From an uncultured SAR86 cluster bacterium (GTDB taxonomy: Bacteria > Pseudomonadota > Gammaproteobacteria > Magnimaribacterales > D2472): DNA of 62,108 nt. The first letter of the stretch is position 1. Every line of letters starts with the position of its first letter. The position numbers were made by a program, and so were the translations under genes. The stretch spans positions 1 to 62,108 of the forward strand of contig CACDVW010000003.1 of assembly GCA_902556355.1 (NCBI GenBank). Reading direction: 5' to 3'. The notes beneath the pieces were generated by a model, which was not told where the DNA came from, did no database searches, and saw nothing but the letters and a program-made list of their open reading frames with translations. Below are positions 36,167 through 47,784 of the stretch, one piece after another.

Positions 36167-37129
36167 ATGGAAATCATTCCAACAAAAAAAATCATCAATA
36201 GAGATGGTGTTAAAGCTGTTAAGAATGGCCAAAAGGGCAATCAATATTCTCATATTCCAAATCTAAAAAAACCTGAATGGCTTAAAGTTAAAGCTCAATT
36301 TAATCCAAATTTCCACAAAATAAAAAATCAGGTAAACGAAAAGAGATTGAATACAGTCTGTGAAGAGGCTCATTGTCCAAATATATCTGAATGCTGGTCA
36401 GCAGGCACGGCAACATTTATGTTGATGGGCTCTGTTTGTACAAGAGCATGTAAATTTTGTTCAGTAGATACTGGTAACCCCAAAGGCTGGTTAGATTCTG
36501 AAGAACCATTAAACACCGCTAAGGCTGTTCAAATAATGAAATTAAAATATGTTGTTTTAACATCTGTTAATAGAGATGACCTGCCTGATGGAGGTGCAAA
36601 ACATTTTGCAGATACAGTAAAACTTATAAAAGACCTTAATCCTGGTACTGCAGTTGAAGCTCTCACACCAGACTTCAAGGGTCTGTCATCTTCAATAGAT
36701 ACTATTGTTAACTGTGGTTTAGAAGTTTTTGCACAAAATATTGAAACAGTTGAAAGACTTACCCATCCGGTGAGAGATATTCGAGCTGGCTATCAACAAA
36801 CTTTAGATGTTTTAGCTGAATCAAAAAAAATTAATCCTAAAGTCTTAACAAAAACCAGTCTCATTCTTGGTCTTGGTGAAACAGATGAAGAGATAGAACA
36901 AACCATGGACGACCTAATAGCTAATAAAGTAGATATTCTAACAATTGGACAATATCTAAGACCAACCCTAAACCATCTACCTATTGAAAGATGGGTAACT
37001 CCAGAGGAATTTGAAGCCTATAGAGAGATTGGATTAAAAAAAGGATTCTTGGAAGTTGTCTCAGGACCTATGGTCAGATCTAGCTACAGAGCTGAAAGAG
37101 CATTAGAAAAAAATAATGCTGGACTTTAA
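36167..37129 (+). CDS. lipA: lipoyl synthase LipA
   Basis: [12 protein letters not shown] and the radical-SAM cluster CTRACKFC. Confidence 0.97.
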
Positions 37130-37247
37130 TTAGGCTTTAAATTTTCTATCAGCTTCAAATTTTTTGTTTTTAAATTTATTGCTTCTGTTTTTTATTGTCA
37201 GTCGATATCTTTATTGATTTTTTAGGAAATATGGATTTTGGAATGGC

Positions 37248-40200
37248 CTAAAAATTTATATCTTCTTCTTGAGCTGTTAAAGAATTAAATCCTAAATTTC
37301 GAACATGTACGTTAGGATAGTGTAATTTTTTTAAATTTCTATATCCCATACTTGTTCTAAGATATTCAATAAAGGCCTTTTTTTCAATACAATCAACACC
37401 ATCAATCTTTTTAATTTTAATTGAGTTAGCTCTTAAAATTTTTAACAATGGCCTGTATTTAATATCGTTTTGATATTTAGGTTTTGTATTTTTTGTAAGA
37501 TAGTCAGAAAGTTCATTTAAGCTACTTATGCTGTGTGTTGTATTACTTTTTCTATATAGAAAATTGGCATCTTGTTTGGTTATATAACTTCTTTCATTAA
37601 AAGAGAACCTATAATCAGCTTGTTTGAAATTGTCATTAATCTCATAGAGATCATATTTTTCTATGAGATTAATATATTTTTTAATCGCTTTTAAGTGATT
37701 TAATGCCTCCCATGTCCCAATTAATGCCTCTAATGGGTATGTGAGTGAAGCCTGTAAAGGAAAAAAACCTACATTTCTTTGAGCAGTTTCTTCTTCAAAG
37801 GTATTAATTATCTTGTCAAAGACTTTTTCATATACCTTTATAAGTGAATTAATTTCATTGTGTATTGTAGTGAATGTTTCTTCTTTATTTTGTATAAAGG
37901 TAAAATCATTATCATTTATTTTATTTTGTAATATATCCAGACTCAAAGGATGTATTTTCTCTTCTTGGGAGTCCCATAAATAGATAAAGTTATTTGTATT
38001 AAATTCGTTTTCCACTGACTTCGAAAACTTGTTTCTTTGACCAGCAAAGTTTGCCATTTTGCTTACTTCATTAGTGCTGACAGAATAAGCAAAAAATCCT
38101 TCTAAAAACGAGATTACTTTAAAAAAACTATCTGCTACACCGTAAAAAGCTCTATGAAAGTTTATAGTTTTTTGAATATTTACAAAATTTTGAATAATTT
38201 CCCAACTAAGAAGTTCTTCAGACAATGCTCCATTTTTTCTTAACCCATGAAGCCTTTTTGTAATTGCTATATCTAAGTCATTGGCTAATGTATTATCTAG
38301 CTGAATAAGACTGACAATATTTAAAACTGAATCAACAATATCATTGTCCCAAATATCCGAATATATTATTTTTAGGGAGAATATTCTTTCTAAAGAGGTA
38401 TTCTTATAATTAGGATAGTAAAAAAATTTTTTGGCTCTTCCTCGTGCAAATATTTTAGTTCTATTGCCATCATTTTTCTCTAAATTATTCATTTCCTCCC
38501 AAACTAGCCACCGTCTTAATTTTTGTATAATAGCGTTTAGCCTATCTTGTATTTTTTGCCTCTTCTTATCATCTTTTATATTTTTTTCTAGCTCCTTCTC
38601 CGTATCATTAAGAATTTGATATAGTGCCTTCATTTCTTTGCCATCATTTTTATATGAATCCGTTAAAAATCTATTTAAATAATTACCTCTTCTTGGAAAG
38701 TTTAAATCTCGCTGCAACACCTGTTGCTGGATATGTAAGCAACTATTGATAAATTCTTCTTTGCTCATATCGCTTTTTGATAAGCCATCTTCTTTAGCAA
38801 TGCGCGGAGAAAGATATTTTTTACTAAATTTTAAATTCAATCTATTTTTCTTTGGTTTTTTTGGAAGTTTTTCATATTCCTGGCCTAACCATTTTTTTTT
38901 CTTTTTCATTTCGATATCAAGCTTATCCCAAAGCATTCTTACTTTTTTTTCTGGTGAAAGATCACCCTTCAATGTATCACTAACAAATTCCTTATAAATA
39001 GTTACAAAATCATTTTTTACTCTTTCATTAGTTTTATTTTTGTACTCTTTAAGTATTTTCTTAAATCTCTTTGTTGTTCGATCTTTTTGAGCAGGATGAT
39101 TTTCGAAATTTTCATAATATGATTGACAAAAATCTAATTGTTCAGCTTTAAGCCATTCGTTAATGTTTGATATTTTGCTTGGATTCGCCTCAATATTTTT
39201 TTTAAAATCATCCAATGCGTTTTTTATTAATTTTTCTTTAGCAAATAATGAGTTTTTTGCTTCAGCATTAACTTGTCTTACATTTTCATTTCCAACACCA
39301 ATAGACTTTTGATCTCTTAATAATATCTTTTCTTGCTGGATACTTTTCCATACCCTTTTGTGAAGATGATTACTGTTTTCAAACACTAGTGGGTCTAAAT
39401 ACCTTCTTGGGAAAAGGTAGTCGTTTGGCATTGAGATATTTAAAGTCATATGTCTTACAAAAGAATCATTATTCGGAGAATAAAATTTACCAGCATCTGT
39501 TATTAAGGTTCTTTTAGAGGCTTCGAGCTGTCCCTTAATAAATTGAAAAGATTCATTAATATTTACTGGCTTAGTATATTTTTTTAATATTGAAAATATC
39601 CTCTTATAATTTTTATTTTGAGAGTCTAAATAATTAAGCATGCAGCTACCAATAGCCCATTGAATAGTTAGTTCAACCGCCTCTGATACAGATTTAAGTG
39701 ATCTTGAATAAATTTTTTTAAATTTCTTTTCTGAATTAAGTGGGAAATCTAAATATCTAAAATACTTATCAACATTAACTATAAAATCGCCTGATACTAA
39801 ATAGTCGGATCCGCCTAGCGTCCTATATTTTTTATCTGTCCAGAATTTTGTCTTAAAATTATTTTTTGAGAAAAATTCATGTAATTTCTTTCTATTTTTG
39901 TCAGTATTTTTAAACCTATACAACCATAAACCTTTATCTTTTATCTGATCGTTTAAATGATTGTTTTTTAAACTATATTTAACCCGTTTTTCTTGAGAGC
40001 TATCTAACTTATACCATTCAGCATCCAATATTAAGTCTTTAGATGTGATTTTTCTGCTAATCCTCCTTAAGAAAAGGTATTTCCATTTATTTTTTGATAA
40101 CACTTTTGCGTTAATAAAACCATTAAATTTACCTCTCCCAACAAAAGATTTTTTGATAGTTACATCAAATATATTTTTACGAATAGTATTTTTATTTTTA

Positions 40201-40997
40201 TATTCTTGAAGATATGCAAGATTACTTTCTAATTTAAATTTTGTTTTAGCACTCTTGTGAGAAAATGATAGTGGAGGGTTCCTATAAAAGCTTTCAGATC
40301 TAGACTCATTTTTAATTTTTCCTGAATATGACCCTAAAATATATAATTTATTTAGATCACAAAGGATATTTTGGCTAGGCTTATCTTCAAAACTACGACC
40401 AATGATATTTTTAGGTAGAACGTCTATATTGTATTTGAGTTTACTCCACTGAATATCTATTAAAGCATCATTAATAATTAAATTATCATTCTCAATATAG
40501 TAGGGAGCAAATATATTTTTTTTTTCAGATGGAAAAATATGGTAGTAAAAATTTTCTTTTATATCTAAGTACTTAAAATTGCCAATTCTGATATCTTTCT
40601 GCTCGTAAAATACTGAGTCTCTAAGCCAATTTCTTTTCTTTTGATTTTCATCAAGAGTCTCCTCATACTGAAAAGTACTGCTAATTACCGCATCAGAAAT
40701 TTTCTTTTTAATGTTATTTTTTTTAATTTCCTTATTGGTATAGCCTAGAAATTTTCCCACATTTAAATAGAGCTGATCTTGAAAGTTCTTACTTAAAAGA
40801 TACTTGCCAAGTATTTCTCTATATTTGTAATTAACGCTGGAAACCCTAACTATTGCTGAGGATAGCTCATGAAAACAACCATCCGGATCTTCATCAGGTG
40901 CAAAAAATTTAGAACGATGACCAGCGCTCTTGTCGATATCTTTATTTAAGTTACTAATGAATTCATTAGAGCTTTCTTTATTAAAAGTTTTAAACAT
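37248..40997 (-). CDS. 1249-aa Lys/Asn/Ile-rich cytoplasmic protein, no recognisable domain
   Basis: An uninterrupted 3.75 kb ORF in about 25 percent G+C DNA, where random ORFs of that length are very unlikely. No signal peptide, TM helix, Walker A or HExxH motif seen. Confidence 0.8.
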   Translation of the reverse strand: MFKTFNKESSNEFISNLNKDIDKSAGHRSKFFAPDEDPDGCFHELSSAIVRVSSVNYKYREILGKYLLSKNFQDQLYLNVGKFLGYTNKEIKKNNIKKKISDAVISSTFQYEETLDENQKKRNWLRDSVFYEQKDIRIGNFKYLDIKENFYYHIFPSEKKNIFAPYYIENDNLIINDALIDIQWSKLKYNIDVLPKNIIGRSFEDKPSQNILCDLNKLYILGSYSGKIKNESRSESFYRNPPLSFSHKSAKTKFKLESNLAYLQEYKNKNTIRKNIFDVTIKKSFVGRGKFNGFINAKVLSKNKWKYLFLRRISRKITSKDLILDAEWYKLDSSQEKRVKYSLKNNHLNDQIKDKGLWLYRFKNTDKNRKKLHEFFSKNNFKTKFWTDKKYRTLGGSDYLVSGDFIVNVDKYFRYLDFPLNSEKKFKKIYSRSLKSVSEAVELTIQWAIGSCMLNYLDSQNKNYKRIFSILKKYTKPVNINESFQFIKGQLEASKRTLITDAGKFYSPNNDSFVRHMTLNISMPNDYLFPRRYLDPLVFENSNHLHKRVWKSIQQEKILLRDQKSIGVGNENVRQVNAEAKNSLFAKEKLIKNALDDFKKNIEANPSKISNINEWLKAEQLDFCQSYYENFENHPAQKDRTTKRFKKILKEYKNKTNERVKNDFVTIYKEFVSDTLKGDLSPEKKVRMLWDKLDIEMKKKKKWLGQEYEKLPKKPKKNRLNLKFSKKYLSPRIAKEDGLSKSDMSKEEFINSCLHIQQQVLQRDLNFPRRGNYLNRFLTDSYKNDGKEMKALYQILNDTEKELEKNIKDDKKRQKIQDRLNAIIQKLRRWLVWEEMNNLEKNDGNRTKIFARGRAKKFFYYPNYKNTSLERIFSLKIIYSDIWDNDIVDSVLNIVSLIQLDNTLANDLDIAITKRLHGLRKNGALSEELLSWEIIQNFVNIQKTINFHRAFYGVADSFFKVISFLEGFFAYSVSTNEVSKMANFAGQRNKFSKSVENEFNTNNFIYLWDSQEEKIHPLSLDILQNKINDNDFTFIQNKEETFTTIHNEINSLIKVYEKVFDKIINTFEEETAQRNVGFFPLQASLTYPLEALIGTWEALNHLKAIKKYINLIEKYDLYEINDNFKQADYRFSFNERSYITKQDANFLYRKSNTTHSISSLNELSDYLTKNTKPKYQNDIKYRPLLKILRANSIKIKKIDGVDCIEKKAFIEYLRTSMGYRNLKKLHYPNVHVRNLGFNSLTAQEEDINF

Positions 40998-41039
40998 TTT
41001 AATTATTTTTGTTTTAGCAGAGTCAAATAATTATATCAA

Positions 41040-41061
41040 AAGGTGCTGTTAACAGCACCTT
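41040..41061. promoter_or_regulatory. perfect 22-bp palindrome AAGGTGCTGTTAACAGCACCTT in the divergent intergenic region
   Basis: Read directly. It is self-complementary around a GTTAAC centre and is the most GC-rich element in the 146-nt gap between the two divergent start codons (40997 and 41144). Confidence 0.5.
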
Positions 41062-41143
41062 ATTAATATTAAATAAAAAACGGAGCAATATCTATTTAAT
41101 TACTACGATATTAATCTAGATTTTAAATTGAGGTATAAAAAAT

Positions 41144-41473
41144 ATGACAAGATTTAAATTAGGTAATACAGAAAACTATGTTGAGGTATCTATAATTTAT
41201 AAGGTTAAAGAAGACCTCGAGAAACAAGAAGTATTTATTATAACGCCTGATCTTTTGGAAAGCTATGAATTGCCTGCATCAAAATTCATATCTTTTTTAC
41301 AACAAAAATTAAATTTTGATGACCCCCATTACTCTTTATGTCATGAGCTCTGGTCCTCTAACAAGGGTTTATTTTCTAAGACATCTGCTAAAGAGGGCGA
41401 TAAATTTGAGTTAAATAAGATTACTCAAATCATCAGCGAAAAAACAGGGGTAATCGATCTAGAAACTAAATAG
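41144..41473 (+). CDS. hypothetical protein, 109 aa (first gene of the plus-strand operon)
   Basis: ORF with GAGGT 8 nt upstream. No recognisable family. Confidence 0.55.
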   Translation: MTRFKLGNTENYVEVSIIYKVKEDLEKQEVFIITPDLLESYELPASKFISFLQQKLNFDDPHYSLCHELWSSNKGLFSKTSAKEGDKFELNKITQIISEKTGVIDLETK

Positions 41474-41492
41474 AAAAGAGGGAGAGTTGATT

Positions 41493-41624
41493 ATGAGAGA
41501 CATTAAGAAAAAATTAGTTGAATTATTAAGTTCAGCAAAAAATCAAAATATTAACAAGATCTATACAAATAAAAGACCTCGCGAGGCTGTTAGATGTATT
41601 TGGAATCTAAGGAGTGAGGCATGA
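41493..41624 (+). CDS. hypothetical basic miniprotein, 43 aa (not in ORF track)
   Basis: Hand translation gives MRDIKKKLVELLSSAKNQNINKIYTNKRPREAVRCIWNLRSEA. GGGAGAG lies 6 nt upstream. The stop overlaps the next start as ATGA. Confidence 0.45.
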   Translation: MRDIKKKLVELLSSAKNQNINKIYTNKRPREAVRCIWNLRSEA

Positions 41625-41806
41625 CTAATAAAAATATAAATTTAATCGAGCACGATGATATTCAATATGACATTGAACTTGACAAATTTATTTGGAAACC
41701 GGGATTCGCTGAAGAAATGAGTGACTATCTTAATTATCAAAATCACGACCATGATTTAGATGAAAAGATTTTTATCTACCAATTTCTTAATCAAAGAAAT
41801 TATTAG
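41621..41806 (+). CDS. hypothetical acidic miniprotein, 61 aa
   Basis: AGGAGTGAGG upstream and an ATGA junction with the preceding ORF. Confidence 0.5.
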   Translation: MTNKNINLIEHDDIQYDIELDKFIWKPGFAEEMSDYLNYQNHDHDLDEKIFIYQFLNQRNY

Positions 41807-41885
41807 TGTTATCAAAGTAGATGGCAGGTCAAGGCCTACATGTTGTCTATTTAATTTAATAACCATAGGCCTAAGGAGAAAAATT

Positions 41886-42680
41886 ATGTCTTTAAAAGAT
41901 GTAAGAGAAGGTTTGAAGGTAGCTGGATGCTTAATATTTGTGGCTTCTTTCTATTTTCTAGTTATTAAAAATGAGCCGCTCCATGATGAGGTTGCCAGAA
42001 CAGTAGAGCAATCAAATTCCTGGACGACTGAGAGAAAGTTAAAGCAGACGGACACTTTTTTATTCCATGCTAAAAATAAATTAGAGAATGCTATAGATCA
42101 AGTTACCAAGCAGGTTTTTCAACTTAACAGCTCAGGTACGCTATTAAGCTCTAAACTAAAAGCATCAATTGCTAGAGAGGAGATGTTAGACAAAAAGCTT
42201 GCTGACTATAAATGGCAGTTCAAAACTCTCGAGCAAAAAGCTTCAGATAATCCACCTAGTTATGACATAGCAATGGATATCACAACAGTAAAAAATAAAA
42301 TTACTAAAATGCTGCTTGAAAAAAAACAGCTCAAAGCAACAATAGTAAGTCTGAAGAATCAGCTTGATGAAAACATAAATCAGACGCAAAAATCAGGTTT
42401 AACATTAATTAAGTTAGAAGGTGACCTCAGTTTGGTTTCTAATACCAACGATCTTAATAATATTTTCTCGCCAAGTGGTGGTATAGGGCTAAGCAAATCT
42501 GGTGCAGATGAGCTTGCAGAGTTAATTAGTGATGTTGGGACAATTAACAAACAGCTTAAAGAATCGCAAGATAATAATGTTGTTCCTGATTATATGATCG
42601 ATGCATATAAAGATACAGATGCTTTATTTGACTCATTTATAAATAGTGATGATACCAAAACTATCAATATAGGAGGGTAA
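41886..42680 (+). CDS. N-terminally TM-anchored coiled-coil protein, 264 aa
   Basis: I prefer the start at Met43 of the track ORF because AAGGAG lies 7 nt upstream. LKVAGCLIFVASFYFLVI forms the anchor, followed by heptad-rich sequence. Confidence 0.6.
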   Translation: MSLKDVREGLKVAGCLIFVASFYFLVIKNEPLHDEVARTVEQSNSWTTERKLKQTDTFLFHAKNKLENAIDQVTKQVFQLNSSGTLLSSKLKASIAREEMLDKKLADYKWQFKTLEQKASDNPPSYDIAMDITTVKNKITKMLLEKKQLKATIVSLKNQLDENINQTQKSGLTLIKLEGDLSLVSNTNDLNNIFSPSGGIGLSKSGADELAELISDVGTINKQLKESQDNNVVPDYMIDAYKDTDALFDSFINSDDTKTINIGG

Positions 42681-42686
42681 TTAAAA

Positions 42687-44426
42687 ATGAGCTCTCCTAT
42701 AATTAATGAAAGAGAAATAAATCAATCTATAAGATTATCAAAGATTCTTTTCTTTTGGGCTATTCTTATAGAATTACTGATTGTATCAATGGGCTGGACG
42801 GCATCATATATATCAGGAAATAGGTCTCTTTCGATTCCTACCTTATTGCTAAGCACACTAGCTTTAGGAGAGCTCACTTCACTTTGGTCTACGGAGGTTT
42901 TTGCCGAGCAAATAAGAAGAAAACGAAGGTATTTAATTAAATTCTGTTCGTTATTTGCAGTCCTTATAGCTATGAGTTTTACAGTTACCAATTTGGGTCA
43001 TATTGCAATGATTGTAGAAAGTCATGAGTCTAGTAAGCTAGAAGGATATCTAATTGATAAAAACAGGATCGAAGATGAAAATTTAACTACTCATCGTGAA
43101 ATAGAAATACAAAAATCCAAAATATTATCACTTCAAGCCCAACATAATAATGACGAATTCCTTCAGGCAACTAAGGATGAACTAGATGAGATCCAGGTTA
43201 CTGAAGAAAAAATTTTTAAAAATATAGATCAAATAAAAGCACAAAATTTTGCTGATGAAAAATCTACCCAAAATTACTTGATTAATTTTAATGAAAAGAA
43301 GCTTAGAGAATTAAAAAGTACCTTCAAGGAGATAGACGATAGATATTTGCAGGAACTGGAAAAGCTTCAAGATGACCGATTTGAAGAGCTAGCTCTTTCT
43401 AGCTGGCGCCAAAAAAATAACACTAAGACTAGGTATGACCAGCTTAGGGCCAATTTAGATAATAAATATAAATTACAAAAAGCTCCTATAGAAAAAGAAA
43501 TAGATAGTCTCAATAAAGAAGTTGCTAAAGCAAAAAATTTATTAGTAAGTTATGCATCCCTCTCACCAGAAAGCATTGAATTAATAAAAAGTCAGAATCT
43601 AAAATTGCAAAATTTAAAAAGTGAAAAAGAAAAACTTGTTGATCAAAAATCTAATTTTTACAAAGACAATAAAGACGATGCTTTCTCATTTAAAAGAGAA
43701 ATCGATAATTTACAACAGATATTAAATGAAAATGATCAGCAACTTTCAAGAATTGAGACAAAGGAAAGGGAATTCAAAAAAACAAGTTGGCTTGTGAAAC
43801 TAGCTAGTAATTATTATGCAAAAAGCACCTCATCTATATCGCTTAGCGAATTCAAATCATTTGCTTACTATTTTGTTCTTATATCTTGTATAGGGTTAGC
43901 TCTGCTCCCAAAAATTTTGGTATTTTTATCGGTGCTCGTAAAAAGTAGCGATCATGATGATCGCACAGAAAAAAAAGATAACTACATTTCTAAAAGTATT
44001 AATTCTTTGGCTAAAGCAATCACAGACTATTCAGAATCTACCAAAAAGATTAAAAAGGCTAAGAAAATTGCAATGCTTGAAGTTGAAGCCATCAAAAGCG
44101 AATCACATAAAAAGATTGATGATAACAACTCTAAAAATGATAAAGAAATAGCAGAAAAAAATAAAAAAATAGCAAATCTTACTTCGGAGATTCTAGTACT
44201 TAAACATGCAAGAAAGAATGACAAACAAATTACTGAATTTTTAAAAAAGCATAAAGAAGTTTTAAATAAACTAGAAGAACTTAAAAGCGTATCTAAAAAA
44301 ACCCCTAACAATAATATTGTGAAAAAACTTATCCCTGTGAATATCTATCAGGAAATGCTTAAGGAGCTAAGCATAGACAGGGAGAGTATAGGCAAGAACA
44401 TTCAACTTAATAAAAAAAAACAATAA
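42687..44426 (+). CDS. polytopic membrane protein with two long coiled-coil regions, 579 aa
   Basis: Three N-terminal helices, about 270 aa rich in K/E/Q/L heptads, a hydrophobic hairpin FAYYFVLISCIGLALLPKILVFLSVLV, then a second K/E-rich coil. Confidence 0.7.
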   Translation: MSSPIINEREINQSIRLSKILFFWAILIELLIVSMGWTASYISGNRSLSIPTLLLSTLALGELTSLWSTEVFAEQIRRKRRYLIKFCSLFAVLIAMSFTVTNLGHIAMIVESHESSKLEGYLIDKNRIEDENLTTHREIEIQKSKILSLQAQHNNDEFLQATKDELDEIQVTEEKIFKNIDQIKAQNFADEKSTQNYLINFNEKKLRELKSTFKEIDDRYLQELEKLQDDRFEELALSSWRQKNNTKTRYDQLRANLDNKYKLQKAPIEKEIDSLNKEVAKAKNLLVSYASLSPESIELIKSQNLKLQNLKSEKEKLVDQKSNFYKDNKDDAFSFKREIDNLQQILNENDQQLSRIETKEREFKKTSWLVKLASNYYAKSTSSISLSEFKSFAYYFVLISCIGLALLPKILVFLSVLVKSSDHDDRTEKKDNYISKSINSLAKAITDYSESTKKIKKAKKIAMLEVEAIKSESHKKIDDNNSKNDKEIAEKNKKIANLTSEILVLKHARKNDKQITEFLKKHKEVLNKLEELKSVSKKTPNNNIVKKLIPVNIYQEMLKELSIDRESIGKNIQLNKKKQ

Positions 44427-44435
44427 GGAACAAAA

Positions 44436-44678
44436 ATGCAAGAATCGACACAAGAAATTTTTAATAAAGAACAAAATCAATTTGTTGAATTGGATACCGA
44501 ATTTATTGAAAGTTATTTTGAATCCAAGCATCGCCAAAAAGAGTTAGAGCTAGATAGAGTAGAAAAACTAAATAATCTCCTGGAAACTGCCAAATTCGCA
44601 ATTAAGGGATTAATCATTTTATCTGGTTTTGTAATCTTTTTTCATTATTTGCCTGAAATTATAAATTTACATAGGTAA
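44436..44678 (+). CDS. tail-anchored small protein, 80 aa
   Basis: Acidic N-terminal half and a C-terminal helix GLIILSGFVIFFHYL. It starts 9 nt after the upstream stop. Confidence 0.5.
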   Translation: MQESTQEIFNKEQNQFVELDTEFIESYFESKHRQKELELDRVEKLNNLLETAKFAIKGLIILSGFVIFFHYLPEIINLHR

Positions 44679-44694
44679 CGGATAGGGAGGAACT

Positions 44695-45144
44695 GTGGAT
44701 TACCCAAATTTAACCGTAGTAAACAATCAAGTAGTTAAGATAACCTCTGTTGAGGTAAATATTCCAATTGAATCCTCTGATGAGAATATAAGCTTTATAT
44801 CTTCAAGCAGCCACATTATTTTTCTAGCTATAAATCAAAATTCCATAAAAAAAATCTACTCTTATGATGACTGGGAAAAGAATTTATTTCTTGCCATTTA
44901 TTACTGCAAAGAATTAACAGATATACAAAAGTGTCAATTTGAAAGATGGTCTACTTATTTTATTAGCTTCAATTTTAAAACATGGAATAAAGCAACTAAG
45001 AACGAAACAAATAACTTTATATCTGATAAGAAAAATCAGCTTTTCGAAGTCAGTCAAGAGTTACAAAAGAAGAAGATCATAGAAAAATACGAACATATTA
45101 GAGATTCAAATAAAAATTTATTCAGAAAACTGACAGAGAGTTAA
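44695..45144 (+). CDS. hypothetical soluble protein, 149 aa
   Basis: GTG start with GGGAGG 4 nt upstream. No recognisable family. Confidence 0.5.
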   Translation: MDYPNLTVVNNQVVKITSVEVNIPIESSDENISFISSSSHIIFLAINQNSIKKIYSYDDWEKNLFLAIYYCKELTDIQKCQFERWSTYFISFNFKTWNKATKNETNNFISDKKNQLFEVSQELQKKKIIEKYEHIRDSNKNLFRKLTES

Positions 45145-45150
45145 AAAAAT

Positions 45151-46896
45151 ATGATGGAAAATTACAGAAAAGGAATTACTCAAGCTTCGTTAAACCTTTA
45201 TACATGGAAAATTATTGCATTAGAGATTTTATTTATTTCTATAGCTTTTGGCGCATACATGGAGTCGATTTATGTTTTTGGCATATCTTTATTCATTTTC
45301 CTGCTACTTTTTTATGTCAAATCAACAGCTATATATGTATCAACTTTATTTTCAATAATATGGGCTCTTATCCCATCTAGCATACTAAGCAATATAAAAA
45401 ATGTTGAGTTTTATTCATCTTTGCATATATTACTTCAATCCCCTGTGTCCCAAGTTTTTGCAATAATAATTTTTTTTATTGCTTTTTATCTTCACAAATC
45501 AACCTCAGATTTTTTTCACGATGCTTTGTACCCAGTAATGCAACCCTTCGTCAATATATTTAAAGGAAGAAAAAATAAAAAGAATTCACAAAATAAAAGA
45601 AATAGGACCAAAATTAAGTATGACAAAATCTTGAATTTTATTTCTGATGAAAAAGTGCATCCTCACAATCTTAGACTATTCCTAGAAAAAAATGGCTTCA
45701 GCCTATATCAAACGAATGAGGATAGGAATTTTGAAAAAAAGATCATATTCAACGATAAAGGGATTATTAAGTTTTATAACTTAGTTGAAACTAAACGATG
45801 GATTACAAAATTTATACAAAAATCTACTTCAAACCCAGAAAAGCTTTTAGATACATGGGTTAAGTTTTCTGATATCGCATTAAAAAGACAAGTTATTGAT
45901 CATTTACAAGTTTATTCATCGTTAAAATTTAATAATACTAAAAGCTTAGAGCTATTAAGAGATAATGAACAAAAATGCTATTTAAAGTTCAAAAATGGAA
46001 TTGTTAGAGTTTCTAGTGATTCAATAGTTTTTTCCCAGTACTCAGATTTGTCTAAATCTGTTTTTGAATCGTCTATTATTCCAAGAAACTTTTCTGGCAT
46101 ATCTAAATTAACGAATCCCTCACAATCACAACCAGGGAATAAAAAACTATTTGAGAAATTTGTTGAAAAAAGTGTTCTATCAAGCATACCCAATGCCGAA
46201 AAAGATAATTGGCGCGATGAGTATGTTTTTGATGAAACTGCAAAAGCATCCCTTACATCGCTAAAAACAGCCCTTGGTTATTTGGTTCACTCATATAATA
46301 ATCCATCTACCTCTAAGGCTGTTTTCTTTGTAGATAGGTTTTCATCTAATGGTAAATCAAATGGTGGTACTGGCAAAAGTCTGATAATAAGTAGCCTTGA
46401 AAATATTTTAGTGCAGTCAAAACAAGATGGAAAAAAATATAGAGATAATCCAAATCAGGGTGGAAGGTTTCAATTTTCAAATGTTGATTATGAGACTCAA
46501 AATATATTTATTGATGATTTAAAACAAAACTTTGATATTGAAAGTATATTTACTATGGTAACTGGTGACATTGAGATTGAGCGCAAAGGGCAAAATAAAT
46601 TTATAATTCCTAAAAATGAACGACCGAAATTTGCTCTAACATCAAATTTTCCAATTCCGATAAAAGGCACAAGTTACTCAAGACGCATTCATCAAGTTGA
46701 GCTAGGAAGCTATTGGAATAGATGCATAAACGAAGGCAGCAAACCAAAAGATGAAATTGGCGGAGAGCTGTTTGGAAATAATTTTTCTAAACATGACTGG
46801 GACGATTTTTATATTTTTATTATTAATTGTGTTCAAGATTATTTAAGGCTAGGTCTTGTAGATGTTCAAAAACTAACGAGTCATCAAGATGATTAA
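45151..46896 (+). CDS. membrane-anchored D5_N/SF3-helicase-like (P4/VirE-type) P-loop NTPase, 581 aa
   Basis: About four TM helices span aa 16-115. CYLKFKNGIVRV resembles the D5_N block. LGYLVHS...VFFVD...GGTGKS is Walker A (nt 46363-46380), NIFIDDL is Walker B (46501-46521) and FALTSN is SF3 motif C (46630-46647). Confidence 0.7.
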   Translation: MMENYRKGITQASLNLYTWKIIALEILFISIAFGAYMESIYVFGISLFIFLLLFYVKSTAIYVSTLFSIIWALIPSSILSNIKNVEFYSSLHILLQSPVSQVFAIIIFFIAFYLHKSTSDFFHDALYPVMQPFVNIFKGRKNKKNSQNKRNRTKIKYDKILNFISDEKVHPHNLRLFLEKNGFSLYQTNEDRNFEKKIIFNDKGIIKFYNLVETKRWITKFIQKSTSNPEKLLDTWVKFSDIALKRQVIDHLQVYSSLKFNNTKSLELLRDNEQKCYLKFKNGIVRVSSDSIVFSQYSDLSKSVFESSIIPRNFSGISKLTNPSQSQPGNKKLFEKFVEKSVLSSIPNAEKDNWRDEYVFDETAKASLTSLKTALGYLVHSYNNPSTSKAVFFVDRFSSNGKSNGGTGKSLIISSLENILVQSKQDGKKYRDNPNQGGRFQFSNVDYETQNIFIDDLKQNFDIESIFTMVTGDIEIERKGQNKFIIPKNERPKFALTSNFPIPIKGTSYSRRIHQVELGSYWNRCINEGSKPKDEIGGELFGNNFSKHDWDDFYIFIINCVQDYLRLGLVDVQKLTSHQDD

Positions 46897-47740
46897 TTCA
46901 GGATTAATAAAATTAAAAAATTCTGACAAAAAGATTGTATGGTATTTTTTTGCAGAAATAATATTTATTTCAAGTTTAATTGCTTCAACCTATAGTAATC
47001 CTTATTTGTTTTTAATCTCAATTTTAGCCATAACATTGTTAATATATTTTGAGTCAACTTCTATATATACCTCTTTATTTTTATCTGTTTTTTGTGCTTT
47101 AGTACCTTTTATGGCTCTGAGTGCTATTTTGGGATTGAATTTTTTTCAATCATATGAAGGTTTTATATCAAGCTCAGGATCAAAAATTTTGATTTTTATA
47201 TTGTTCTGTATATCATTTTATTTTCATCTTCACTCAAGAATTATTATAAGAAATTTTTATGAACCATTTTTTAAGAAAATTAGATTTTATATACCGATTA
47301 GAAATGAAAAATTTCATATAAAGATTTATGGATCCTCATTAAACACGCCAAAAGTAAAAAGATATGTGAATGATATAATGTTCTACCTTATGCCTTTCTA
47401 TGGCGAAGATAAAAACATAATTATCAAAGAAACTGGCTGTATTAATTCTAAGGACACAGAATCGGGTTATGCTCTTGGTAATTGTGTGTATGACAATGAG
47501 AATACAGTTGTTATAAACATATCAGAATATAACTCTATGCAAAGAACAAAACAAAGTATGGATAGTAAAATTAAAACCCTTGCTCATGAACTAGTTCATG
47601 CAAAACAGTTTTTAAAAGGTGAGCTGAATGGAGAATATTGGCATGGAAAAAAATATGAAAATTTAGTATGGGAAGATAGACCGTGGGAAAAAGAGGCAGT
47701 TCTGCTTGAAAAAAAATTATTTAATAAGCACTGGTATTGA
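46889..47740 (+). CDS. membrane-anchored HExxH zinc-metallopeptidase-like protein, 283 aa
   Basis: The N-terminal 4-TM module is paralogous to that of the preceding gene. The C-terminal LAHELVHAKQ has HELVH at nt 47585-47599 and a downstream PWEKEA that could supply the third ligand. It overlaps the upstream gene by 8 nt. Confidence 0.65.
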   Translation: MINSGLIKLKNSDKKIVWYFFAEIIFISSLIASTYSNPYLFLISILAITLLIYFESTSIYTSLFLSVFCALVPFMALSAILGLNFFQSYEGFISSSGSKILIFILFCISFYFHLHSRIIIRNFYEPFFKKIRFYIPIRNEKFHIKIYGSSLNTPKVKRYVNDIMFYLMPFYGEDKNIIIKETGCINSKDTESGYALGNCVYDNENTVVINISEYNSMQRTKQSMDSKIKTLAHELVHAKQFLKGELNGEYWHGKKYENLVWEDRPWEKEAVLLEKKLFNKHWY

Positions 47741-47784
47741 GCATCTGATAAATTAAGATAATCGCATTTTAAATTTTACCCTGG

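What the first reader, a model, noticed from the sequence alone, without database searches (positions are those of the whole stretch)
37248..40997. 1249-aa orphan giant protein with no recognisable catalytic motif
A 3.75 kb ORF in DNA this AT-rich, and so rich in stop codons, cannot be a chance ORF. Yet I find no Walker A/B, DEAD/DExH, HExxH, HNH/Cys cluster, signal peptide or TM helix. The sequence mixes Lys/Asn-rich low-complexity stretches (for example KKKKKWLGQEYEKLPKKPKKNRLNLKF) with clearly globular aromatic-rich stretches (for example WAIGSCMLNYLD and FHRAFYGVADSFFKVISFLEGFFAYS). It is transcribed divergently from the operon and shares its upstream region with the 22-bp palindrome, which suggests co-regulation. 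Large single-chain proteins of this size beside small accessory operons are often effectors or sensors in defence islands.
Basis: partly seen in the sequence, partly recalled or inferred. Interest (0 to 1): 0.7.

Follow-up and report, generated by a model that had tools for sequence, protein, structure and literature searches.

The report
Orphan giant protein marking a SAR86 cassette
The 1249-residue gene is real and resembles no known protein in sequence or predicted fold; it is the hallmark of a roughly 10.6 kb gene cassette that only some strains of the abundant ocean bacterium SAR86 carry, and its function is still unproven (best guess: a membrane-linked defence system).

Summary
Window 37248..40997(-) is a real, conserved 1249-aa gene. 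Its product is soluble and basic, with no TM segment and no Walker, DEAD, HExxH or Cys motifs. It has no match in Pfam, NCBIfam, PADLOC, PHROGs, PDB sequences, phage or plasmid records. Two AlphaFold2 models have no match in PDB, and the full-length model none in BFVD.

The family is tiny. There are 10 full-length clusters among 5.8 billion proteins, and only 20 hits in an exhaustive HMMER scan of 1.84 billion representatives. All come from marine metagenomes; wherever a flanking gene could be identified the host is SAR86.

The gene always sits divergently beside a ~109-aa gene (g109). It is usually followed by one syntenic operon: coiled-coil membrane proteins, a membrane-anchored SF3 (D5/VirE-type) ATPase, and a membrane-anchored HExxH protease that shares the same 4TM anchor.

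The 10.65 kb block (37130..47784) is an insertion. A conspecific SAR86 genome has lipA and dctM 2 bp apart. In metagenomes the block has 1-15% of the flank depth. Between two hosts it is 97-99.6% identical while the lipA-side flank is 86-93% identical.

No integrase, att site, capsid gene or viral contig was found.

Best reading, at confidence 0.4: the cytoplasmic subunit of a new membrane-coupled conflict or defence cassette. Main rival: a cryptic mobile element.

The parts
37130..47784 (.). Whole inserted cassette (10,655 bp) between the lipA stop (37129) and the dctM stop (47785).
   Evidence: The conspecific SAR86 SAG AG-447-B02 (L010) has lipA and dctM stops 2 bp apart. An empty-site contig joint 37132->47879 is seen in run X10, and cassette depth is 1-15% of flank depth. 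GC is 28-32% against 33-37% in the flanks.
37248..40997 (-). Giant gene, 1249 aa. The protein is soluble and basic (K+R 222, D+E 156).
   Evidence: Ten full-length homologues. dN/dS 0.375.
40668..40997 (-). Giant residues 1-110: N-terminal helical domain, the best conserved block. It carries the invariant P-x-E-D-x-D-G-x-F motif, N56, R60, VGxxLGY and K93, and is kept even in the short distant members.
   Evidence: Alignment A1. pLDDT 84-94 over residues 61-110. P0042 and P0055 keep the motif.
39738..40580 (-). Giant residues ~140-420: beta-rich region with many indels. Invariant polar residues include E158/K160, E257/S258, S314/T318/D321/D325/K330, N364/N368/R369 and D404. Residues ~140-360 are missing in the short member P0042, and apparently in P0055 too.
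   Evidence: Only weak beta-sandwich/barrel matches were found (reovirus sigma1 head, adenovirus fibre knob; E>=0.017, TM<=0.31).
37650..39689 (-). Giant residues ~437-1116: long all-helical region. Conserved blocks alternate with variable Lys/Asn-rich linkers, including the K-rich stretch at residue 698.
   Evidence: Secondary structure of the models. Conservation profile.
37251..37586 (-). Giant residues ~1138-1249: small C-terminal alpha/beta domain, possibly a winged-helix DNA-binding domain (a lead only).
   Evidence: Model topology. HTH_17 hit at E=0.005 in 1 of 12 family members only.
41040..41061 (.). 22-bp perfect palindrome in the divergent spacer. Its position and dyad symmetry are conserved across cassettes, and both arms change together.
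41030..41039 (-). TTGATATAAT, an extended -10-like box for the giant gene, directly downstream of the palindrome on the giant-gene strand.
   Evidence: Read from the sequence. Similar boxes occur in L005, L008 and L103. Consensus match only.
41144..41473 (+). g109: the first operon gene and the universal divergent partner of the giant gene (27-60% identity across cassettes). No known family.
41487..41806 (+). Two small ORFs, g45 (41487..41624) and g61 (41621..41806). No known family. Similarly sized small ORFs occupy this position in other cassettes; homology is shown only for g61 (L001, L008/L009, L096).
41886..42680 (+). g306, more likely 264 aa from Met43: one N-terminal TM segment plus a coiled coil.
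42687..44426 (+). g579: multi-TM protein with two long coiled-coil stretches. It is the most divergent cassette gene and carries a local hypervariable segment.
   Evidence: nt identity drops to 87-94% at 42.6-44.6 kb inside an otherwise 97-99.6% identical cassette.
44436..45144 (+). g80 (C-terminal TM segment) and g149 (soluble). No known family.
45151..46896 (+). g581: N-terminal 4TM anchor fused to a D5_N/VirE-like region and an SF3 P-loop ATPase. Walker A is GGTGKS (405-410), Walker B IFIDD (452-456), motif C LTSN (496-499).
46889..47740 (+). g283: the same 4TM anchor fused to an HExxH (HELVH) metalloprotease of SprT/M91 type.
   Evidence: Pfam Peptidase_M91 at 30.3 bits, cut-off 25. Anchor is 37% identical to the g581 anchor, E 2e-10.

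Best explanation
Shown. The ORF encodes the signature protein of a previously undescribed accessory gene cassette, found so far only in marine metagenomes and in SAR86 wherever the host can be identified. The invariant core is the giant gene plus a divergently transcribed ~109-aa gene (g109). The two are separated by a spacer with a conserved dyad-symmetric site. Most cassettes add one operon encoding coiled-coil membrane proteins (g306, g579, g80), a small soluble protein (g149), and two proteins that share a 4TM anchor. One anchor carries an SF3 (D5/VirE/DUF5906-type) ATPase (g581) and the other an HExxH protease (g283). The cassette is a strain-variable insertion in the lipA/dctM hotspot. 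It has recently spread between diverged hosts.

Inferred mechanism. The cassette is a membrane-coupled conflict system, anti-phage or anti-MGE. The membrane module would sense or act at the envelope. The giant protein would be its cytoplasmic partner: a large, basic, mostly helical scaffold. It may bind nucleic acid, given its net charge of +66 and a possible C-terminal winged helix. Its indel-rich beta-rich insert may confer specificity. The dyad site would tie expression of the giant gene to that of the operon. Whether the giant protein has any catalytic activity is unknown.
For: - Real gene and conserved family.
- No known family or fold.
- The exhaustive HMMER scan finds only the family itself.
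- Conserved synteny in all loci.
- Insertion against an empty site in a conspecific genome.
- Minority carriage and an empty-site contig in metagenomes.
- Cassette dS is 0.02-0.06 for most genes, against 0.38-0.68 for the lipA-side flank genes, with a sharp identity switch at 37128.
- dN/dS is 0.16-0.39 for cassette genes against 0.03-0.07 for core genes. g579 has a local hypervariable segment. This is the pattern expected for genes in an arms race.
- No integrase, transposase, att repeat, tRNA or capsid gene. No relatives in IMG/VR, phage or plasmid collections.
- The helicase core has been re-tooled. Only cassette members carry the 4TM anchor, while the nearest outgroups are soluble. The ATPase and protease modules can be dropped while the 4TM protein stays (L008, L006). 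This modularity is typical of conflict systems.
- The dyad site is conserved with co-varying arms.
Against: - No component matches any PADLOC defence model.
- The locus is not next to known defence genes.
- Distribution is restricted to one lineage, whereas successful defence systems usually spread across phyla.
- The only component with clear ancestry (g581) comes from MGE or phage replication proteins.
- No nuclease, NTase, TIR, Sir2 or other effector fold was detected in the giant protein.
- The AlphaFold2 models are only of medium confidence (pLDDT 67-68), so a known fold could have been missed.
- No expression data: RNA runs hold at most 6% of the sampled words.
Confidence: 0.4

Rival explanations
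1. The block is a cryptic integrated mobile element: a satellite-like element, or a capsid-less or membrane-enveloped one. g581 would be its replication helicase. The giant protein would be an element function of a new kind, such as a recombinase or integration factor, a replication protein, or a virion or nucleoprotein component. Its position resembles that of a prophage integrase: at the edge of the element, transcribed outward, and divergent from the rest across an operator.
For: - Precise presence/absence against a conspecific genome.
- Recent horizontal spread.
- Lower GC than the flanks.
- g581's nearest relatives are primase-helicases of phages and of small integrase-bearing elements. 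g581 and g283 hit PHROG families.
- The family is lineage-restricted and fast-evolving, as expected for host-specific elements.
- A second chromosomal context exists, next to dapB (L004 and L095).
- The top, weak fold matches of the beta-rich region are viral attachment-protein heads.
Against: - No integrase, transposase, excisionase, capsid, terminase or Rep domain in any ORF.
- No att repeats or tRNA. Only 10-120 bp lie between the cassette genes and the flanking genes.
- No circular junction appears in metagenome contigs.
- No relatives in 2.9 million IMG/VR contigs, 50,697 phage records or 72,556 plasmid records.
- The helicase is membrane-anchored and is dispensable in some variants.
- The same hotspot holds unrelated non-mobile cargo in other SAR86 genomes. 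Identity stays at 99% into dctM. Both fit exchange by homologous recombination in the flanks.
Confidence: 0.3
2. The cassette is a non-conflict accessory machine of the envelope. One possibility is a membrane DNA or protein translocation device, in which the 4TM-anchored hexameric ATPase works like FtsK, SpoIIIE or TraB. Another is a membrane-remodelling or quality-control module. The giant protein would be a cytoplasmic scaffold or substrate adaptor.
For: - Most of the longer operon products are membrane proteins: g306, g579, g80, g581 and g283, but not g109, g45, g61 or g149.
- The 4TM + linker + ring-ATPase layout resembles FtsK/SpoIIIE. This is an architectural analogy from general knowledge, not homology.
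- A protease shares the same anchor.
- The long helical architecture of the giant protein fits a scaffold.
Against: - Low population frequency, rapid divergence and a hypervariable g579 are unusual for a housekeeping-like machine.
- No secretion-system, competence or FtsK-family domain was detected.
Confidence: 0.15
3. The ORF is a chance open frame, a pseudogene remnant or an assembly artefact.
For: None found.
Against: - Probability of about 10^-47 for a chance ORF of this length.
- Full-length homologues down to 29% identity, with 130+ invariant columns.
- dN/dS of 0.375.
- Near-identical copies in at least 20 independent metagenome runs from at least 9 studies.
Confidence: 0.01

Closest known systems
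Kiwa (KwaA/KwaB) and Zorya (ZorA-D): membrane-coupled anti-phage systems
   Same: The design logic is similar. Multi-TM and coiled-coil membrane proteins are encoded beside a large cytoplasmic partner, in a strain-variable locus. Kiwa is described as a membrane-embedded supercomplex that senses membrane changes caused by phage infection or conjugation (bioRxiv 10.1101/2023.02.26.530102, abstract seen). From my own knowledge, Zorya pairs a MotAB-like ZorAB complex with a long coiled-coil tail and a ~1,100-aa cytoplasmic ZorD.
   Different: No sequence match to any Kiwa or Zorya model in PADLOC. The giant protein lacks the helicase/nuclease motifs of ZorD. The cassette has 9-10 genes and includes an SF3 ATPase and an HExxH protease on a shared 4TM anchor, which neither system has.
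D5/VirE/P4-alpha-type SF3 primase-helicases (Pfam DUF5906, VirE_N, PriCT) of phages, satellites and integrative elements
   Same: The soluble part of g581 (residues ~166-570) is homologous to these proteins. tblastn gives E 9e-24 to a phage 'VirE' protein, and phrog_28855 scores 1e-35. DUF5906 is hit in 3 of 6 cassette homologues. Walker A, Walker B and motif C are invariant.
   Different: This applies to the neighbour g581, not to the giant protein. In g581 the N-terminal primase-type region is replaced by a 4TM anchor, which soluble outgroups lack. No integrase or origin accompanies it here, unlike the outgroup elements L098-L100.
Replacement-type flexible genomic islands of streamlined marine bacteria (hotspots between core genes)
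   Same: The cassette occupies one intergenic hotspot (lipA/dctM) that carries different cargo in different SAR86 genomes. It is present in a minority of cells. It appears to be exchanged together with flanking sequence.
   Different: Unlike the short, unrelated cargo that other SAR86 genomes carry at this hotspot, this cargo is a coherent 10-gene module of unknown proteins. The module is also found in a second context, next to dapB.
SMC/Rad50/SbcC-like long coiled-coil ATPases (top BFVD matches)
   Same: Long helical stretches give weak Foldseek matches (E 0.15-0.5).
   Different: No Walker A or B motif and no ABC head domain. TM-scores are <=0.1, so the match reflects helix content only.

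Membership tests
Any curated protein family (Pfam, NCBIfam, PHROGs) for the giant protein | A profile-HMM hit at or near the curated threshold | tested here: not met
   No families at E<=0.01 in Pfam, NCBIfam and PADLOC, and none at E<=0.1 in PHROGs. Scanning all 11 members at E<=1 gave only scattered hits far below cut-off. The distant members P0040, P0042 and P0055 also gave nothing.
Known anti-phage defence systems (PADLOC-DB v2, including Zorya, Kiwa, Druantia, BREX, Lamassu, Wadjet) | HMM match of at least one signature protein | tested here: not met
   Eight cassette proteins were scanned. The only hit was g80 against candidate PDC-M11B at E=0.0044, which is not significant.
Known anti-phage defence systems | Protection against phage when expressed | not testable with these tools
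   Needs an experiment.
Solved or predicted known folds for the giant protein | Foldseek E<0.001 or TM>0.5 to a PDB or BFVD entry | tested here: not met
   Full-length homologue model (pLDDT 66.7): best PDB E 0.49, best BFVD E 0.15. Window residues 1-450 (pLDDT 67.9, pTM 0.69): best PDB E 0.017, TM<=0.31. Model confidence is medium, and no AlphaFold DB search was available.
P-loop NTPase / helicase (giant protein) | Walker A GxxxxGK[ST] and Walker B / DEAD-DExH | tested here: not met
   No Walker A in any of 11 members. DExH-like strings are sporadic and not conserved.
Zn metalloprotease / HNH / Zn-finger (giant protein) | HExxH, or conserved Cys/His clusters | tested here: not met
   No HExxH or CxxC. 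No invariant Cys, and only two invariant His (H634, H1101).
SF3 helicase, D5/VirE/DUF5906 (neighbour g581) | Walker A, Walker B and motif C (S/T-S/T-N), plus a profile hit | tested here: met
   GGTGKS, IFIDD and LTSN are invariant in A3. DUF5906 best E 1.1e-7 in 3 of 6 homologues. Phage VirE/primase matches. Relatives carry VirE_N and PriCT domains.
SprT/Peptidase_M91-type metalloprotease (neighbour g283) | HExxH motif and a Pfam hit above the gathering score | tested here: met
   HELVH motif. PF14891 at 30.3 bits, cut-off 25. SprT-like at 23.4 bits, just below its cut-off of 25.6.
Integrative mobile element / prophage / satellite | Integrase, transposase or other recombinase gene | tested here: not met
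   No such domain in any cassette ORF. Outgroup elements with related helicases do carry them.
Integrative mobile element / prophage / satellite | att or target-site repeats, or a tRNA target, at the ends | tested here: not met
   Only an AT-rich 10-mer, TTTAAATTTT, is shared between the two ends. No tRNA. No Rfam match in related loci. No conserved end sequences among variants.
Integrative mobile element / prophage / satellite | Presence/absence polymorphism with a clean empty site, and evidence of horizontal spread | tested here: met
   Exchange by homologous recombination would give the same result.
Integrative mobile element / prophage / satellite | Excised, circular or encapsidated form; presence in viral or plasmid collections | tested here: not met
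   No end-to-end joint in contigs of 4 runs (contigs are weak evidence). No relatives in IMG/VR, phage or plasmid collections.
Excisionase/MerR-type HTH (C-terminal domain of the giant protein) | Pfam HTH_17 match or a winged-helix fold match | tested here: inconclusive
   HTH_17 at E=0.005, below cut-off, in 1 of 12 members. The topology is compatible, but there is no fold hit.

The most novel reading that the evidence does not exclude
The cassette is a previously unknown class of multi-gene, membrane-coupled immune system in one of the ocean's most abundant bacterial lineages. Its 1,250-aa cytoplasmic subunit would have a fold and mechanism with no counterpart among known defence proteins. 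It would work with a replication-type SF3 helicase and a protease that have both been re-tooled onto a common 4TM anchor.

An equally novel alternative is also not excluded. The giant protein could be a new kind of recombination or mobility factor that explains how an integrase-less cassette moves.
Probability: 0.3. Interest if true: 0.8.

Novelty: categorically new. Interest (0 to 1): 0.55.

Why it matters
SAR86 is uncultured and is among the most abundant heterotrophs of the surface ocean. How its streamlined genomes deal with phages and mobile DNA is essentially unknown.

This cassette spends about 10.6 kb, including a 3.75 kb gene, on proteins that no database can name. It is kept under selection, it moves between strains, and it is carried by a minority of cells. 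That is the population signature of conflict genes.

If it is an immune system, it adds a new protein fold and a new design: an SF3 helicase and a protease on a shared membrane anchor. If it is a mobile element, it lacks every known mobility gene and points to an unknown mechanism.

In either case the giant-gene + g109 pair and the dyad site give a compact, testable unit.

Tried and rejected
- Pfam, NCBIfam, PADLOC and PHROGs on the giant protein, on all family members and on distant members gave nothing.
- A PDB sequence search with the family profile gave only p300 at E=2, which is noise.
- A second homology search with the profile found no new members.
- The exhaustive HMMER search of 1.84 billion representatives first failed because the profile exceeded 1,200 positions. 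Rerun with a C-terminally trimmed alignment, it found only the family and its fragments.
- Two AlphaFold2 runs and three Foldseek searches gave no significant match.
- tblastn of the giant protein against phage and plasmid collections gave nothing.
- Pattern scans for the giant family in GTDB species genomes and IMG/VR, and for g581 in IMG/VR, gave nothing.
- I searched for an integrase, att repeats, a tRNA and a replaced dctM 3' end. The DctM C-terminus is simply a variable TM helix in all SAR86, so I dropped the 'integration into the dctM 3' end' idea. The shared 10-mer TTTAAATTTT is AT-rich and probably chance.
- PDB profile searches for g581, g109 and g579 gave nothing.
- The S_4TM hit on g581 (E 0.005, below cut-off, 2 of 6 members) was judged not significant.
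- The HTH_17 lead for the C-terminal domain was not reproducible across members.
- RNA-seq evidence of expression was negligible.
- The promoter/terminator consensus scan was uninformative in this AT-rich DNA: 42 promoter-like sites against 58 expected.
- Reading a PD-(D/E)xK nuclease motif into PSEKK (E158/K160) was considered and dropped, because no conserved upstream Asp is present.

Full report
OBSERVATION. Window 37248..40997 on the minus strand is an ATG-initiated ORF of 1249 codons. At the local base composition a stop codon is expected about every 11 codons. An open frame of this length has a chance probability of about 10^-53, or about 10^-47 after allowing for all positions in the window.

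The product has no hydrophobic segment that scores as a TM helix. It is strongly basic, with K+R 222 against D+E 156. Regex checks on it and on all 10 full-length homologues find no conserved Walker A, DEAD/DExH, HExxH, CxxC or GDD motif.

The gene is divergent from an operon that starts at 41144. The 146-bp spacer holds a perfect 22-bp palindrome at 41040..41061, which is unique in the window.

IS IT KNOWN? No.
- Pfam, NCBIfam, PADLOC and PHROGs give nothing for the window protein. Pfam also gives nothing of note for each family member or for the most distant members.
- A family profile finds nothing in PDB sequences.
- tblastn finds nothing in 50,697 phage records or 72,556 plasmid records.
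- I predicted a full-length homologue (P0008, 1197 aa, 11-sequence alignment; pLDDT 66.7, pTM 0.56). I also predicted window residues 1-450 (pLDDT 67.9, pTM 0.69).
- Foldseek against PDB and, for the full-length model, against BFVD gives no match below E=0.017, and TM-scores are <=0.31.
- The recurring weak matches are beta-sandwich heads of viral attachment proteins for the beta-rich region, and SMC/Rad50-type coiled coils for the helical region. Neither is significant. The SMC-like match is also contradicted by the absence of a P-loop.

ARCHITECTURE.
- Residues 1-110 form a well-conserved helical domain with a confident core (pLDDT 84-94 over residues 61-110). It carries an invariant P-x-E-D-x-D-G-x-F motif.
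- Residues ~140-420 are beta-rich and full of indels, with many invariant polar residues.
- Residues ~437-1116 are all-helical. Conserved blocks alternate with variable Lys/Asn-rich linkers.
- Residues ~1138-1249 form a small alpha/beta domain. Its winged-helix look is supported only by a sub-threshold HTH_17 hit in one of twelve members.

THE FAMILY. Searching 5.8 billion proteins returns 10 clusters. All are full length (1196-1268 aa), 29-96% identical and unnamed. A profile search adds none.

An index-free HMMER scan of 1.84 billion cluster representatives returns 20 hits. All are the family itself or fragments of it. Two shorter, more distant members were found: P0042 (980 aa) and P0055 (970 aa). 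Both keep the N-terminal, helical and C-terminal blocks. P0042 lacks residues ~140-360, and P0055 appears to as well. The beta-rich region is therefore an optional insert.

All sources are marine metagenomes.

CONTEXT. Every locus recovered shows the giant gene divergent from a ~109-aa gene, g109 (L001-L009, L090-L097, L102, L103). g109 is 27-60% identical across cassettes.

In the window the operon runs in this order:
- g109, then two small ORFs;
- g306: one TM segment plus a coiled coil;
- g579: several TM segments plus two long coiled coils;
- g80: a C-terminal TM segment;
- g149: soluble;
- g581;
- g283.

This order is kept in cassettes whose giant proteins are only 29-47% identical.

g581 is the best conserved protein, at 54-58% identity. 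It consists of a 4TM anchor fused to a D5_N/VirE-like region and an SF3 ATPase. Walker A (GGTGKS), Walker B (IFIDD) and motif C (LTSN) are invariant. It matches phrog_28855 at 1e-35. It matches phage 'VirE' and 'primase' proteins, and DUF5906 is hit in 3 of 6 homologues.

Its nearest relatives outside the cassette are soluble, at 35-40% identity over the C-terminal 70%. At least one group of them lies in small elements with tyrosine integrase, resolvase and ParB-methylase genes. The helicase core therefore came from a mobile-element replication protein and was fused here to a membrane anchor.

g283 carries the same anchor (37% identity, E 2e-10) fused to an HExxH protease. It hits Peptidase_M91 above its cut-off, and SprT-like just below its cut-off.

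Variants exist:
- L008/L009 keep a 144-aa protein that is only the anchor, and lack the ATPase and protease.
- L006/L007 lack g283.
- L103 has the giant gene, g109, a 4TM-protease and a g149-like gene.
- L102 has the giant gene, g109 and two lipoprotein-like genes.

The invariant core is thus the giant gene plus g109, and the membrane module is variable.

THE LOCUS IS AN INSERTION IN A HOTSPOT. The flanking lipA is 99% identical to that of the SAR86 single-cell genome AG-447-B02 (L010). In that genome the lipA and dctM stop codons are 2 bp apart. Window 37130..47784 (10,655 bp) is therefore extra DNA. Its GC content is 28-32%, against 33-37% in the flanks.

Eight other SAR86 genomes carry 0.4-3 kb of unrelated small cargo at the same spot.

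In four metagenome runs the cassette has 1-15% of the depth of its flanks. One contig joins 37132 directly to 47879. Near-identical copies occur in at least 20 runs from at least 9 studies.

I compared the window with L001, whose giant protein is 96% identical.
- Most cassette genes have dS 0.02-0.06, and g579 has 0.18.
- lipA, lipB and dctP have dS 0.38-0.68.
- Nucleotide identity jumps from 86-93% to 97-99.6% exactly at 37128, and stays at 99% into dctM.

The cassette has therefore recently moved between diverged hosts. dN/dS is 0.375 for the giant gene and 0.16-0.39 for the other cassette genes, against 0.03-0.07 for the core genes. A segment of g579 drops to 87-94% identity inside the otherwise near-identical block.

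HOW IT MOVES IS UNRESOLVED. No cassette ORF has an integrase, transposase or excisionase domain. There is no tRNA, and no Rfam element in related loci. There is no target duplication beyond an AT-rich 10-mer, and no conserved terminal sequence among variants.

The idea that the element replaces the 3' end of dctM was tested and dropped. No circular junction appeared in contigs. No relative of the giant protein or of g581 exists in IMG/VR.

Exchange by homologous recombination in the flanks fits the shared hotspot and the 99% identity that continues into dctM. However, two loci (L004, L095) place the cassette beside dapB.

REGULATORY SITE. The palindrome is conserved in position and symmetry across cassettes, while its arms change together:
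- GGTGCTGTTAACAGCACC in the window;
- GGTGCAGTTAACTGCACC in L090;
- GGTGTAGTTGGCTACACC in L008;
- CATACAGTTAACTGTATG in L004;
- GGTATACTTAGCTATACC in L006;
- TTTACTAA...TTAGTAAA in L103.

On the giant-gene strand it is followed within a few bases by a -10-like box; in the window this is TTGATATAAT. That position suits an operator overlapping the -35 region. A hairpin followed by a T-run, that is a leader terminator, cannot be excluded. In L002 and L005 the arms stay paired only through G.T on that strand.

INTERPRETATION. Three things are shown. This is a real, selected gene family with no known relative. It marks a coherent gene cassette. The cassette is horizontally exchanged and carried by a minority of cells.

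The function is inferred. I favour a membrane-coupled conflict (defence) system, with the giant protein as its cytoplasmic partner, possibly nucleic-acid-binding (confidence 0.4). The reasons are:
- the population signature: accessory, low frequency, fast evolving, with a hypervariable membrane protein;
- the absence of every mobility and virion hallmark;
- the re-tooling and modular loss of the helicase and protease on a shared anchor;
- the analogy with Kiwa (10.1101/2023.02.26.530102) and, from my own knowledge, Zorya.

Against this reading, there is no PADLOC hit, no recognisable effector fold, and the distribution is limited to one lineage.

The main rival (0.3) is a cryptic mobile element. 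In it g581 would replicate the element, and the giant gene would sit where a prophage integrase usually sits. A non-conflict envelope machine is a third option (0.15). An artefact is excluded.

VERDICT. Co-occurrence and a shared regulatory site hold up, but a defence role is not demonstrated. The protein family and the cassette match no known kind. The interest is real but limited, because function remains unassigned and orphan genes in marine flexible islands are common.

Noticed in passing
window 41040-41061; also L090, L008, L002, L005, L004, L006, L097, L103 spacers: The 22-bp palindrome between the giant gene and g109 keeps its position and dyad symmetry across cassettes that are only 29-47% identical in protein, with both arms changing together. 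A -10-like box follows it on the giant-gene strand. It could be an operator or a leader hairpin.
   Followed up: partly
window 45151-45500 and 46889-47230: g581 and g283 share a homologous 4TM N-terminal domain (37% identity, E 2e-10), fused to an SF3 ATPase in one and an HExxH protease in the other. In L008 the same domain stands alone as a 144-aa protein.
   Followed up: partly
window 42628-44627 (g579): Inside a cassette that is otherwise 97-99.6% identical to L001, this segment drops to 87-94% nucleotide identity (g579 dS 0.18, dN/dS 0.39). It is a hypervariable or recombined patch in the coiled-coil membrane protein.
   Followed up: partly
L010-L019, lipA/dctM intergenic region (equivalent to window 37130/47784): The same spot is a cargo hotspot in other SAR86 genomes. 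It is empty (2 bp) in AG-447-B02. Elsewhere it holds 0.4-3 kb of unrelated genes, mostly small multi-TM proteins that recur across genomes and lipoprotein-like proteins.
   Followed up: partly
window 41760-41886: The 306-aa ORF call for g306 probably starts too early. Homologues are 262-295 aa, and the L001 gene call starts at the equivalent of Met43 (41886). The longer frame overlaps g61.
   Followed up: partly
L090 10680-10825; L093 678-708: Two metagenomic copies of the giant gene are split between frames, or carry an insertion, near residues ~1193 (L090) and ~101-110 (L093). These are possible pseudogenes or assembly errors.
   Followed up: no
L098-L100: The nearest soluble relatives of g581 (P0024-P0027, 565 aa) sit in small elements with tyrosine integrase, resolvase and ParB-N6/N4 methylase genes. 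These look like an uncharacterised family of small integrative elements in marine metagenomes.
   Followed up: no
L004 1-470: The cassette copy next to dapB is followed by a ~340-bp non-coding stretch with GC-rich, structured-looking sequence. No tRNA or Rfam family matched it.
   Followed up: partly
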